Shown: positions 45,850 through 47,108 of the stretch, piece after piece
Layout of the letters: each line of letters starts with the position of its first letter
How positions within the stretch are numbered: the stretch's first letter is position 1
Assembly: GCA_003963225.1 (NCBI GenBank)
Contig: RXKB01000001.1
Location: 105,957-169,956 of the forward strand
Reading direction: 5' to 3'
Source: Candidatus Babelota bacterium
Lineage (GTDB): Bacteria > Babelota > Babeliae > Babelales > Vermiphilaceae
DNA length: 64,000 nt
Program-made: the position numbers and the translations under genes
Notes under the pieces: model-generated
Told to the model about the DNA's origin: nothing
The model's database searches: none
The model's input: the letters and a program-made list of their open reading frames with translations, nothing else

Positions 45850-45875
45850 AAAAAGAATGTCGAGGGAGCGCTCGA
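45850..45875 (-). terminator. hairpin plus U-tract ending the large non-coding region
   Basis: Minus strand: TCGAG-CGCTCC-CTCGA followed by CATTCTTTTT. Confidence 0.5.
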
Positions 45876-47072
45876 ATACCCCTCATTATGAGGGGCAAAT
45901 ACTGGAAGTCAACACTTTTTTAGAGTGTTCCTCCGTAGGATATAGTTGCATACGGAGGAACCACGTGCCTCGGTGTATTGAGGCGGAGGAGGGAGTGCTG
46001 CCGACAAATCGCTCTGCAACAACGCAGGATACGATTCACCGTGTCATAGACGTGGCCAGTGTAGCCCCGTCGCGTCCTTTGTTTATCCCCCGCACTACCG
46101 AGGGTTTTTTGTGTGACGCCAGCAGCACTCCGTTTGGGGGCTACGGTTAGTAGCCGCCTCCACCAGTTGCATTTCGGTTTCTCACCTTGGCAAGCAACGG
46201 CCAATTGTACTTGGGGTGTTGGGAGAGGATCAAACCAGGCCTCTCAACAGTCTCATGACTTGGATTATTACGCTACGCTGCTCCGCCCGACGGCTAGCTA
46301 GGCCATGCGAGTTTCATTGCAACGACCGGGTCTTTCCGGCATCCCTCCGCCTTCTGGTGTATATTTGCTACCAGAGAGGGCGCGCTTATCACCACTTGTC
46401 TTTTGGTACCGTGGTGGTTTATTCGGCGCTATCCGCATCATATCGACTGAACCCAGCCACAGACACATGGCTGTTACTTTCCCCCCGAAGGACGGGACAA
46501 TTCAGTCACCAAAACCCACGTACAAGCACAGGCAGTGAGAGCCTGCGGACAGTGTAGCAACCCACGTCTTTGGTAGACGCTCACAGGTGCCGTCAAACGG
46601 CGGCCACACCTATTTTGAGTGCTTGCCCCTTAGTCCTGGACCTTAGCCCAAGATCAGAGTTTCACGACCCTTATTGCATGGTCAGGGCACTCAAATCGGA
46701 AATTGAGAAACAGGCGATTACCGCGAACGGTTATTGGTCTTCCATTGAAGGGAGAGGGAGAAGAGTTGCCTCCTCCCCATCGACCGCATAATGTGATTTG
46801 CAAGACATTCATCTTGGGAGCTGTTAACGGTACTCCAGTATCCAGGAACCCTTGATGTGGATTCCAATCCAGACACGCAATACAGGTGTTACCCTGCTAG
46901 TGGAACTTCATTGATCGGTTGTCGTTCCTCCGGCTCGCGTGGATCTCTCACCAGATTGGGTTTTTCATTTTAGATGAACCCGTCCATCTTACGTCCTGTT
47001 TCAATCCTCTGGGGTAAAGAAAACTCCACCCGGGAAGGATGTTTCGCGAGGACCTATTGCTAAGTGCGCTCG
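45876..47072 (-). ncRNA. candidate large structured RNA (about 1.2 kb, class unknown)
   Basis: There is no credible ORF on either strand and many perfect 5-11 bp hairpins. The region lies between a promoter-like box and a terminator. An ACAGG-ACGUAAGA-UGGACGGG-UUCAUC motif lies near its 5' end. Confidence 0.4.
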
Positions 47073-47078
47073 CAAGTT

Positions 47079-47108
47079 ATTATACCAGGGTAAGGCCCTC
47101 CCCCACAA
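47079..47108 (-). promoter_or_regulatory. sigma70-like promoter facing the RNA island
   Basis: Minus strand: TTGTGG, 18-nt spacer, TATAAT. Confidence 0.4.

What the first reader, a model, noticed from the sequence alone, without database searches (positions are those of the whole stretch)
45850..47108. A 1.2-kb ORF-poor, hairpin-dense region bracketed by a promoter and a terminator: candidate giant structured RNA
Only short ORFs with implausible composition occur between the stop of 47122..47640 and the first Y-like unit.

On the minus strand, a TTGTGG-18 nt-TATAAT box (47108-47079) leads into roughly 1.2 kb packed with perfect local helices:
- UUCCUCCGUA ... UACGGAGGAA (45928-45960);
- CCCUC-U-CUGGU ... 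ACCAG ... GAGGG (about 46335-46380);
- CACCAC/GUGGUG (about 46392-46418);
- CCCCUCA-UAA-UGAGGGG (about 45878-45895).

The region ends with UCGAG-CGCUCC-CUCGA followed by CAUUCUUUUU (45850-45875). A Y-module-like 5' motif, ACAGG-ACGUAAGA-UGGACGGG-UUCAUC, lies near 46971-46998. A second CGUAAUAA ... CUGUUG motif lies near 46240-46275.

Large ornate RNAs such as GOLLD and ROOL are known to sit in phage genomes next to tRNA-type genes. I cannot tell from reading whether this region belongs to a known class or is new.
Basis: seen in the sequence. Interest (0 to 1): 0.7.

Follow-up and report, generated by a model that had tools for sequence, protein, structure and literature searches.

The report
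Modular structured RNAs beside phage Ro60
This 1.2-kb stretch of a large phage genome encodes no protein but a chain of conserved, intricately folded RNA domains at the head of an RNA-gene island next to the phage's Ro60 gene, and none of these domains matches a described RNA family.

Summary
The region is real, non-coding and under strong selection for RNA structure on the minus strand. Five homologues at 73-79% identity give an RNAalifold energy of -600 against -410±10 for column shuffles, and 95 compensatory pairs against 39±6. Substitutions show no codon periodicity.

It looks like a mosaic of modules rather than one proven giant RNA:
- a conserved extended -10 promoter (47108-47079) and two leader hairpins;
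- U0 (47002-46707), closed by the same stem and loop as the seven Y-RNA-like units downstream;
- an 84-nt three-way-junction motif (46696-46613), also found in unrelated phages and gained or lost as a discrete cassette;
- domain C (46610-46206);
- domain D (46170-45980);
- a 3' hairpin.

Relatives carry different subsets of these modules.

Its U-run lies in the loop of a long covarying hairpin that follows a second conserved promoter (45912-45885).

Rfam 15 matches nothing here, including GOLLD, ROOL, tmRNA, introns and RNase P. The synteny WGR gene, 172-aa gene, RNA island, Ro60 holds in distant phages. The function (Ro60-linked RNP scaffolds or decoys) is inferred, not shown.

The parts
47079..47108 (-). 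Promoter P1. TTGTGG (47108-47103), 18-nt spacer and TGG-TATAAT (47084-47079), an extended -10. The transcription start is inferred near 47072. The -35 overlaps a GC-rich hairpin at 47121-47096.
   Evidence: Read from the sequence. 93% identical over 76 nt in L001, 88% in L040 and 82% in L006. Invariant in alignments A1 and close.aln.
47004..47075 (-). Two 5' leader hairpins (47075-47042 and 47039-47004). The GUUUUCUUUACC run is a hairpin loop and arm, not a terminator.
   Evidence: RNAalifold runs. Hairpin 2 has both-side changes at 3 of its 5 outer pairs.
46707..47002 (-). U0, an oversized Y-RNA-like unit (296 nt). Terminal helix GAAACAGG/CCUGUUUC, then an internal loop (5' ACGUAAGAU, 3' GGUAAUCGC), then helix GGACGG/CCGUUC, then GUUCAUC. 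A branched body of about 250 nt replaces the tRNA-like module.
   Evidence: Five of the seven pairs of the closing helix show both-side changes. The stem, loop and UUCAUC signature is the same as in units U1-U7.
46613..46696 (-). Three-way-junction (3WJ) motif. Order: P1, CCU, P2 hairpin, GUGAAACUCUGA, variable P3 hairpin, ACUAAGGGGCAA, P1'.
   Evidence: Model R1 scores 98.7 bits. In 13 distinct sequences 91.6% of cells are paired, 18 of 24 pairs change on both sides, and 0 of 500 shuffles reach this. Found in unrelated phage contigs.
46206..46610 (-). Domain C. A three-way sub-domain (46610-46551), a hairpin (46547-46527) and a large multi-branch domain closed by 46524-46509 with 46222-46206. 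Contains the invariant UUCG hairpin CCGUCCUUCGGGGGG and the strings ACCAGAAGGCGGAGG and GUAGCGUAA.
   Evidence: 122 pairs, 96.7% paired. 31 pairs change on both sides, against 10.0±2.4 in shuffles and 2-5 when partners are slid. Absent from L001 and L006, partial in L005.
46176..46203 (-). Short linker hairpins between domains C and D.
   Evidence: Support is weak: 1 compensatory pair.
45980..46170 (-). Domain D. The helix GGAGUGCUGC/GCAGCACUCC closes a multi-branch junction. Invariant hairpin loop GGUAGUG. Flanked by GGUGGAGG on the 5' side and CCUCC on the 3' side.
   Evidence: Model R2 scores 176.9 bits. It also hits L001, L003, L005 and L013, and L006 at 38 bits (E = 6e-10). 47 pairs, 91.7% paired, 25 changing on both sides against 11.4±2.1 in shuffles.
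45928..45960 (-). 3' hairpin: UUCCUCCGUA, 13-nt loop, UACGGAGGAA.
   Evidence: Changes from CGUA/UACG to UGCA/UGCA in L011, L012 and L013. Missing in L003.
45878..45912 (-). Promoter P2: TTGACT (45912-45907), 16-nt spacer, CATAAT (45890-45885). The -10 lies in the loop of a covarying hairpin, 45895-45878.
   Evidence: Promoter scan gives 10 of 12 matches. Both hexamers are conserved in all relatives while the hairpin arms covary.
45820..45873 (-). It is the first RNA after P2.
   Evidence: The MFE fold of each of five homologues forms the same long stem with different flanking sequences.
43738..45806 (-). Context: array of Y-RNA-like units U1-U7. U1-U4 carry tRNA-like T and D arms. The array is interrupted by an HNH ORF on the other strand (44553-45140).
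   Evidence: Sub-threshold Rfam YrlA hits of 27.8-36.7 bits. Unit folds. HNH domain.
41814..43499 (-). Context: Ro60/Rsr orthologue (TROVE plus Ro60 vWA domains).
   Evidence: Pfam TROVE E = 6.6e-18 and vWA_Ro60 E = 2.3e-5.
47122..47999 (-). Context: a 172-aa protein of unknown family (47122-47640) and a WGR-domain protein (47637-47999). This pair is syntenic with the RNA island in all relatives.

Best explanation
**What it is.** The interval is non-coding. It is the 5' third of a 3.6-kb RNA-gene island on the minus strand, about 47108 to 43600. The island lies between a WGR-domain gene plus a 172-aa gene and the phage's Ro60 (TROVE) gene.

**Layout.** Host sigma-70 RNA polymerase would start at a conserved extended -10 promoter (P1) and transcribe a tandem series of self-contained structured modules:
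1. two leader hairpins;
2. U0, a 296-nt unit closed by the same terminal stem and internal loop as the seven Y-RNA-like units downstream;
3. an 84-nt three-way-junction module that behaves as an independent cassette across phages;
4. two ornate domains, C (about 405 nt) and D (about 190 nt);
5. a 3' hairpin.

A second conserved promoter (P2) then begins the Y-like array.

**Most likely mode of action (inferred).**
- The modules work as RNA components of Ro60-centred RNPs, as separate processed RNAs or as tandem domains.
- U0 would dock on Ro60 through its Y-like stem and present an enlarged effector body.
- 3WJ-C-D would act as a scaffold or decoy for a host RNA-handling factor tied to tRNA, tmRNA or the ribosome. 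This parallels the way bacterial Y RNA tethers Ro60 to PNPase.

**Shown:** absence of coding, conserved covarying structure, strand, modularity, promoter conservation and synteny.

**Inferred:** transcription, processing, Ro60 binding and biological role.
For: **Non-coding.**
- No open frame under any single stop-codon reassignment.
- Mismatches by codon phase are flat (82/80/89, 99/94/102, 126/119/124), against 27/12/46 and similar in the adjacent gene.
- Most indels are 1-2 nt long.
- Antisense ORFs are broken in relatives.

**Structure.**
- Alifold energy is -600 against -410±9.6 for shuffles, with 95 compensatory pairs against 39±5.6. The reverse complement gives -554.
- Each domain is supported separately: U0, 3WJ, C, D.

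**U0 is a Y-like unit.** It shares the terminal helix, the 5' (A/C)GUAA and 3' CUGUU(C/U) loop, and the UUCAUC signature with U1-U7. The downstream units hit Rfam YrlA at 34-46 bits in the window and in relatives.

**Modularity.**
- L001 has 3WJ and D but not C.
- L006 has only D.
- L040 has none of the modules.
- L038 has a 3WJ that is precisely absent from its close relative L039.
- The 3WJ stands alone in unrelated phages.

**Synteny.** The order WGR gene, 172-aa-family gene, RNA island, TROVE gene holds in close and distant relatives. The distant proteins are 22-24% identical, and hhalign gives probability 83%.

**Promoters.** Both are conserved.
Against: - There is no expression data, so transcript ends and processing are unknown.
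- Only about 4-7 effectively distinct homologues exist per domain. The tested structures were predicted from the same alignments, which inflates the controls.
- The published Rsr-binding motif GNCGAAN0-1G is absent from U0 and from the Y-like units, so Ro60 binding is an analogy only.
- 3WJ, C and D have no Y-like closing stem.
- Other phages that carry the 3WJ show no Ro60 gene within the fetched flanks.
- L040 shows that the phage group can lack every module of the flagged region.
Confidence: 0.55

Rival explanations
1. One giant ornate RNA of about 1.15 kb that folds and acts as a single molecule, in the manner of GOLLD or ROOL.
For: - One conserved promoter lies at the 5' end and the next conserved promoter lies only after the 3' hairpin.
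- The window has no conserved internal promoter or terminator.
- All domains are conserved together in five relatives.
- As in GOLLD, a 3' module (D) is the most widely kept and the 5' part is variable (PMC12286853).
Against: - Modules are present or absent independently.
- L003 carries a perfect intrinsic terminator between U0 and the 3WJ.
- No covarying inter-domain helix was found.
- The 3WJ occurs alone in gaps of 300-600 nt in other phages.
Confidence: 0.3
2. The 3WJ module is a new self-cleaving ribozyme, a processing signal or a ligand-binding aptamer that acts on the RNA island. The flanking domains would be its cargo.
For: - The junction strands (CCU, GUGAAACUCUGA, ACUAAGGGGCAA) are highly conserved around freely covarying stems, across phages of 49-62% GC.
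- It behaves as a discrete cassette placed in the spacer between RNA units.
- It lies next to tRNA-like elements or tmRNA in several lineages.
Against: - It matches no ribozyme or riboswitch model in Rfam.
- Twenty-two of the invariant positions were fixed by the search pattern used to collect most examples.
- No cleavage site or expression platform can be read from the sequence.
Confidence: 0.15
3. A diverged member of a known large RNA family: GOLLD, ROOL, tmRNA, RNase P RNA or a group I/II intron.
For: - The context resembles that of GOLLD and ROOL: a phage, next to tRNA-type genes, with tRNA-Met in relatives (PMC12286853).
- Distant relatives carry a tmRNA in the same island.
Against: - Rfam 15 gives no hit at gathering thresholds in the window.
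- At E up to 10 on 5 kb and on 1.2 kb there is only noise.
- There is no hit in three homologues at E up to 5.
- ARAGORN finds no tmRNA or tRNA.
- The GOLLD, ROOL and OLE sequences in the supplements of PMC12286853 lack the invariant strings.
Confidence: 0.04
4. A protein-coding gene or pseudogene: recoded, frameshifted or antisense.
For: ORFs of 172 aa and 113 aa exist on the plus strand.
Against: - Substitutions show no 3-nt periodicity and most indels are not multiples of 3.
- No stop-codon reassignment opens a frame.
- The plus-strand ORFs carry 1-9 stops in relatives.
- Compensatory base-pair changes occur throughout the region.
Confidence: 0.02
5. A long structured cis-acting leader (attenuator or antiterminator) that controls transcription of the Y-RNA array and the Ro60 gene.
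For: It lies upstream of the array and of Ro60, on the same strand. The hairpins overlap promoter elements.
Against: - P2 gives the array its own promoter.
- About 1.15 kb of covarying multi-branch structure far exceeds known leaders.
- L040 and L006 keep the array and Ro60 without most of it.
Confidence: 0.05

Closest known systems
Bacterial and phage Y RNAs (YrlA, Rfam RF02553), partners of Ro60/Rsr
   Same: - Encoded within 4 kb upstream of a TROVE/Ro60 gene, on the same strand.
- A long terminal stem with an internal loop closes each unit.
- The downstream units U1-U4 have tRNA-like T and D arms and give sub-threshold YrlA hits.
- U0 shares their terminal stem signature (PMC4201824).
   Different: - U0 is 296 nt, against 80-130 nt, and has no tRNA-like module.
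- The GNCGAAN0-1G Rsr-binding motif is absent, with (A/C)GUAA in its place.
- No hit reaches the gathering score.
- 3WJ, C and D have no Y-like stem at all.
GOLLD RNA (RF01998)
   Same: - Very large, ornate and phage-encoded.
- Lies next to tRNA islands or tRNA-Met.
- The 3' region is widely conserved and the 5' part is variable, sometimes with tRNAs inserted. Compare L001, which has a tRNA-like element with CCA 5 nt upstream of the 3WJ (PMC12286853).
   Different: - No covariance-model match, even at E = 10.
- No shared invariant strings.
- Multimeric cage formation is untested.
ROOL RNA (RF03087)
   Same: A phage or prophage RNA near tRNA islands, with a complex multi-domain fold and unknown function.
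   Different: No covariance-model match. The size and domain order are different.
Phage-encoded tmRNA (RF00023)
   Same: It occupies the equivalent island (WGR gene, 172-aa-family gene, RNA island, TROVE gene) in the distant relatives L026, L038 and L039, where it is followed by the same 3WJ motif.
   Different: The window has no tmRNA. ARAGORN finds none, and the only Rfam tmRNA hit is an 18-nt T-arm match in unit U2.

Membership tests
YrlA / bacterial Y RNA (RF02553) | Encoded within about 4 kb of a Ro60 (TROVE) orthologue, on the same strand | tested here: met
   U0 (47002-46707) lies 3.2-3.5 kb upstream of the TROVE gene, whose start is at 43499, on the same strand. The criterion comes from PMC4201824.
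YrlA / bacterial Y RNA (RF02553) | Covariance-model score at or above the gathering threshold (69 bits) | tested here: not met
   No YrlA hit inside 45850-47108 at E up to 10. The downstream units score only 27.8-36.7 bits.
YrlA / bacterial Y RNA (RF02553) | GNCGAAN0-1G motif near the 5' end, overlapping the Rsr-binding site | tested here: not met
   A regex over 47140-43500 on the minus strand finds a single match, at 45284-45277, outside any unit.
YrlA / bacterial Y RNA (RF02553) | A tRNA-like domain with T and D arms | tested here: not met
   No tRNA or T-arm hit in 45900-47100. The feature is present only in U1-U4.
YrlA / bacterial Y RNA (RF02553) | Long terminal stem formed by the 5' and 3' ends, with an internal loop | tested here: met
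   The closing helices of U0 have compensatory changes (5 of 7 pairs and 2 of 6 pairs). The architecture is the same as in U1-U7.
GOLLD (RF01998) | Match to the family covariance model or its conserved 3' domain | tested here: not met
   No hit at gathering thresholds or at E up to 10 in the window, and none at E up to 5 in three homologues. The invariant strings are absent from the GOLLD sequences in the supplements of PMC12286853.
GOLLD (RF01998) | Phage or prophage location next to tRNA genes | tested here: met
   Large phage contigs. The island holds tRNA-like units, and relatives carry tRNA-Met.
GOLLD (RF01998) | Homo-oligomeric nanocage assembly | not testable with these tools
   Requires cryo-EM or SEC-MALS on the transcript.
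ROOL (RF03087) | Match to the family covariance model | tested here: not met
tmRNA (RF00023 and clan CL00001) | tRNA-like domain, tag reading frame and pseudoknots, as detected by ARAGORN or Rfam | tested here: not met
   ARAGORN finds 0 genes in the window. The only Rfam hit is an 18-nt T-arm match at 45596-45613.
Group I/II introns, RNase P RNA, OLE, HEARO, raiA, known ribozymes and riboswitches | Match to any Rfam 15 covariance model | tested here: not met
   Only noise of 14-18 bits (CRISPR repeats, snoRNA, miRNA) at E up to 10.
Protein-coding gene | Conserved open frame with third-position excess of substitutions and indels in multiples of three | tested here: not met
Intrinsic terminator at 45875-45850 | A GC-rich stem conserved or covarying directly before the U-run | tested here: not met
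   The stem is absent in L003, L011 and L013. The U-run lies in the apical loop of a longer conserved hairpin.

The most novel reading that the evidence does not exclude
3WJ-C-D (about 770 nt), together with the oversized Y-like unit U0, would be a previously undescribed class of large ornate phage RNA. It would work with a phage Ro60/WGR/172-aa protein module. The 84-nt three-way junction would be a new catalytic or ligand- or protein-binding RNA fold that moves as a cassette between the RNA islands of unrelated phages.
Probability: 0.3. Interest if true: 0.85.

Novelty: new variant of a known kind. Interest (0 to 1): 0.62.

Why it matters
Large structured non-coding RNAs outside the ribosome are rare, and each class found so far (GOLLD, ROOL, OLE) has turned out to be structurally remarkable.

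This case has four points of interest:
- More than 1.1 kb of covarying RNA structure lies directly beside a phage Ro60 gene and an array of Y-RNA-like units. That gives the RNAs an obvious candidate protein partner, which GOLLD and ROOL lack.
- It adds a compact three-way-junction motif with highly conserved junction strands that recurs next to tRNA-like, Y-like and tmRNA genes in unrelated phages.
- It shows that these RNA islands evolve by shuffling discrete structured modules.
- If the Ro60 link holds, it would extend Y-RNA biology from adaptors of about 100 nt to scaffolds several times larger, and it would make the function of phage Ro60 testable.

Tried and rejected
**Known families and coding**
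- Stop-codon recoding was tested in all six frames with each stop read through, and no frame opens.
- Rfam was run at gathering and permissive thresholds on the window, on sub-windows and on homologues. Nothing hits the region.
- ARAGORN finds nothing.
- BLASTN of the region against 50,697 phage records gives no match.

**Resemblances from memory for the 3WJ, rejected on topology or missing core elements**
- Hammerhead.
- HDV-like: there is no conserved P1 5' strand.
- Group I R/S elements: there is no S element.
- TPP riboswitch.
- Twister, pistol, hatchet and hairpin ribozymes.

**Searches for more examples**
- A text search of the literature for the invariant string finds 0 papers.
- Looser 3WJ patterns in IMG/VR added only L028, which model R1 rejects.
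- The domain D pattern in the GTDB genome contigs and in IMG/VR gave only chance hits, rejected by R2.
- An eye-judged D-like domain after the 3WJ of L026 is not supported by R2.
- The nearest Ro60 in the phage-record collection (the 635-kb uncultured phage LR745206.1, 38.6% identity) has no R1, R2 or Rfam hits nearby.

**Other dead ends**
- The AlphaFold2 model of the 172-aa protein was too poor to search with (pLDDT 43).
- Pfam and PHROGs scans of genes that flank the 3WJ in other phages revealed no common theme.
- The single-sequence folding z-score does not separate the region from coding DNA.
- A search for inter-domain covarying helices or pseudoknots found none that was convincing.
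Full report
**1. The observation**

- TTGTGG (47108-47103), an 18-nt spacer and TATAAT (47084-47079), preceded by TGG, which makes an extended -10;
- the four local helices;
- UCGAG/CUCGA followed by CAUUCUUUUU (45875-45850);
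- ACGUAAGA...GGGUUCAUC near 46990.

The minus strand has no ORF longer than 94 aa between 47121 and 45850. Reading through any one stop codon does not open a frame. The plus strand does contain ORFs of 172 aa (45632-46150) and 113 aa (46216-46557).

Hairpin density in the single sequence is not evidence. The MFE z-score of 47082-46090 is -3.2. The two coding genes just upstream give -2.9.

**2. Context**

- Rfam at gathering thresholds and ARAGORN find nothing in the whole 64-kb window.
- A permissive Rfam scan of 43000-48000 finds sub-threshold YrlA (Y-RNA-like) hits at 45525-45653, 45387-45492 and 44010-44067 on the minus strand. It finds nothing inside the flagged interval.
- Pfam identifies the 561-aa product of 41814-43499 (minus strand) as a Ro60 orthologue with TROVE and Ro60 vWA domains.
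- Pfam also identifies 47637-47999 as a WGR-domain protein, 49101-50315 as RecA-like and 44553-45140 (plus strand) as an HNH endonuclease. The 172-aa protein next to the region has no family.

The flagged region therefore heads a 3.6-kb gene-poor stretch that ends at the Ro60 gene.

**3. Homologues**

- The 172-aa protein has few relatives.
- Their contigs (L001-L014) keep the order WGR gene, 172-aa gene, ORF-poor gap, TROVE gene.
- Full-length homologues of window 47140-45369 at 73-79% nucleotide identity exist in L003/L004, L011, L012 and L013/L014. L010 is partial.
- L001 and L005 share only patches.
- L006/L007 share the promoter and the Y units.

**4. Non-coding, structured, minus strand**

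*Coding test.* In the alignment, mismatches against the window fall evenly across the three phases:

| Relative | RNA region | 172-aa gene (control) |
|---|---|---|
| L003 | 82/80/89 | 27/12/46 |
| L011 | 99/94/102 | 31/16/80 |
| L013 | 126/119/124 | 26/15/73 |

Only 2-4 of about 41 indels are multiples of three. The plus-strand ORFs carry 1-9 stops in relatives.

*Structure test.* RNAalifold on five sequences gives -600 kcal/mol, against -410±9.6 for 15 column shuffles. There are 95 pairs with compensatory changes, against 39±5.6. The reverse complement gives -554, so the window's minus strand is the RNA strand.

**5. Anatomy**

- **Leader.** After P1 come two hairpins, 47075-47042 and 47039-47004.
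- **U0 (47002-46707).**
  - It is closed by GAAACAGG/CCUGUUUC, and five of these seven pairs change on both sides.
  - A second helix follows, GGACGG/CCGUUC.
  - The stem has the same layout as the seven Y-like units downstream: a terminal helix, an internal loop with 5' (A/C)GUAA and 3' CUGUU(C/U), a second helix, then UUCAUC.
- U0 is therefore an oversized member of that unit family.
- **Three-way junction (46696-46613).**
- **Domain C (46610-46206).** It has 122 pairs with 96.7% of cells paired. Thirty-one pairs change on both sides, against 10.0±2.4 in shuffles and 2-5 when partners are slid.
- **Domain D (45980-46170).** It has 47 pairs with 91.7% of cells paired. Twenty-five pairs change on both sides, against 11.4±2.1 in shuffles and 4-9 when slid.
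- **3' hairpin (45960-45928).**

These structures were predicted from the same alignments, so the controls are generous. The margins are nonetheless large.

A scan for stacked covarying pairs outside the nested fold found no convincing helix linking the domains.

**6. The 3' boundary**

- A sigma-70-like promoter, TTGACT-16-CATAAT (45912-45885), scores 10 of 12. It is conserved in every relative, and the hairpin arms around its -10 covary.
- In each of five homologues GACAUUCUU pairs with a downstream AAGAAUGUC, and the flanks extend the stem with different sequences. This puts the U-run in the apical loop of a hairpin of about 55-105 nt, 45873-45820 in the window.
- The structured block therefore ends near 45925, and a new transcription unit probably starts at P2.

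**7. The three-way-junction motif**

*How the examples were found.*
- Exact-pattern scans using its two most conserved strands found it in unrelated phage-like contigs. In IMG/VR these are L017 and L018. In JGI metagenomes they are L019, L021, L022, L023, L024/L027 and L026. None was found in the GTDB genome contigs.
- One pair of hits (L020/L025) lies inside a 1047-aa ORF and was discarded.

*Structure and support.*
- The architecture is P1, CCU, P2 hairpin, GUGAAACUCUGA, variable P3 hairpin, ACUAAGGGGCAA, P1'.
- A covariance model (R1) realigned 13 distinct sequences. 91.6% of cells are paired, 18 of 24 pairs change on both sides, and 0 of 500 shuffles reach this.
- Caveat: 22 of the invariant nucleotides were fixed by the search pattern.
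- An independent instance was found by R1 alone in L038 (68 bits). It differs at one of those positions.

*Context in other phages.*
- In other phages the motif sits in intergenic gaps of 300-600 nt.
- It is often beside tRNA-like pieces, as in L001, L021 and L024.
- It also lies downstream of a phage tmRNA in L026 and L038.
- These loci share no proteins with the window.
- L039, 80-91% identical to L038 in the flanks, lacks exactly the 78-nt motif. In L038 the motif occupies the spacer between two Y-like units.
- It is therefore a discrete cassette.

**8. Modularity and the wider cassette**

| Locus | Modules of the flagged region present |
|---|---|
| Window, L003, L011, L012, L013 | U0, 3WJ, C, D |
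| L005 | 3WJ, part of C, D |
| L001 | 3WJ, D (a tRNA-like element ending in CCA lies 5 nt before the 3WJ) |
| L006/L007 | D only (38 bits, E = 6e-10) |
| L040 | none, although the promoter is 88% identical |

- Model R2 for domain D produced the D hits listed above.
- The island of L040 holds an HNH ORF, a YrlA-like RNA and four tRNAs.
- L003 has a 200-nt insertion between U0 and the junction that ends in a perfect intrinsic terminator.
- A profile search found distant relatives of the 172-aa protein at 22-24% identity. Their contigs L038 and L039 again show a WGR gene, this protein, an RNA island (YrlA-like RNA, tmRNA, and in L038 the junction motif) and then TROVE.
- The 141-aa ORF upstream of the tmRNA in L026 is a probable homologue (hhalign probability 83%, E = 8.5e-6).

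**9. Comparison with known RNAs**

- No Rfam 15 family matches the region in the window or in three homologues.
- The GOLLD, ROOL and OLE sequences in the supplements of PMC12286853 lack the invariant strings.
- No paper in the library contains the motif string.
- The published Y-RNA criteria are met for position and terminal stem. They are not met for the GNCGAAN0-1G motif, the tRNA-like domain or the model score.
- The closest functional analogies are bacterial Y RNAs, which are Ro60 adaptors, and GOLLD/ROOL, which are large ornate phage RNAs beside tRNA islands. Membership in any of them fails.

**10. Interpretation**

*Shown.*
- The region is a conserved, non-coding, heavily base-paired set of self-contained RNA domains on the minus strand.
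- A conserved promoter leads it.
- It is embedded in a plastic RNA island that is syntenic with WGR, 172-aa and Ro60 genes.

*Inferred.*
- The domains are transcribed by host RNA polymerase.
- They act as tandem domains or as processed RNAs.
- They serve Ro60-centred RNPs: U0 through its Y-like stem, and 3WJ-C-D as a scaffold or decoy.

I put about 0.55 on this overall picture. I put about 0.3 on the single-giant-RNA alternative and about 0.15 on a catalytic or ligand-binding role for the junction motif. The last of these is compatible with either of the first two.

Noticed in passing
window 43738-45806 (-): Seven tandem Y-RNA-like units, U1-U7. Each is preceded by a U-run and closed by a stem with a 5' (A/C)GUAAU and 3' CUGUUC internal loop, followed by UUCAUC. 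U1-U4 carry tRNA-like T and D arms and hit Rfam YrlA below threshold. U5-U7 are short (64-78 nt) and lack them.
   Followed up: partly
window 44490-45366, including the HNH ORF 44553-45140 (+): About 880 nt unique to the window replaces the segment that holds tRNA-Met(CAT) in relatives L001, L003 and L006. It carries an HNH endonuclease ORF on the opposite strand, so it looks like a homing-endonuclease insertion. The window has no ARAGORN tRNA at all, only a weak tRNA-like hit at 45133-45201 (21.9 bits).
   Followed up: partly
window 41814-43499 (-), and 43595-43622 (-): A phage Ro60/Rsr orthologue with TROVE and vWA domains. Its nearest match among the phage records searched is an uncultured 635-kb phage at 38.6% identity. 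A terminator-like hairpin with a U-run lies just upstream of its start and may close the RNA island.
   Followed up: partly
window 47096-47121 and 45878-45895 (-): Both conserved promoters overlap GC-rich hairpins: one over the -35 of P1 and one enclosing the -10 of P2. The arms of the P2 hairpin covary among relatives. This suggests selection on an RNA or single-stranded DNA structure at the promoters themselves.
   Followed up: no
L038 9176-9254 compared with L039 9887-9890: A precise presence/absence polymorphism of the 78-nt three-way-junction motif between two closely related phage contigs. The motif sits in the spacer between two Y-like units.
   Followed up: yes
L038 7527-7947, L039 7013-7433, L026 3001-3436 (-): Distantly related phages carry a full tmRNA gene (103-143 bits) inside the equivalent island between the WGR and 172-aa-family genes and TROVE. 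RlaP, NT5C, AAA and Band_7 genes lie nearby.
   Followed up: partly
L003 about 6935-7133: A 200-nt insertion relative to the window, at window position about 46705. It ends in a perfect intrinsic terminator (CCGGAGGC-AUAA-GCCUCCGG followed by CUCUUUUUGAUUUU) immediately before the three-way junction.
   Followed up: partly
window 50378-52706 (-), judged from relatives L003, L005 and L006: Gene calls in the relatives show ThiF-like (E1-like) and Prok-JAB genes upstream of the RecA-like gene. The homologous window ORFs would be 51590-52213 and 52233-52706. I did not check these with Pfam on the window itself.
   Followed up: no
window 47122-47640 (-): The 172-aa protein has no Pfam or PHROGs family and gives a poor AlphaFold2 model (pLDDT 43). 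It is nevertheless the most constant protein neighbour of the RNA island across close and distant relatives, which makes it a candidate RNA-island partner.
   Followed up: partly
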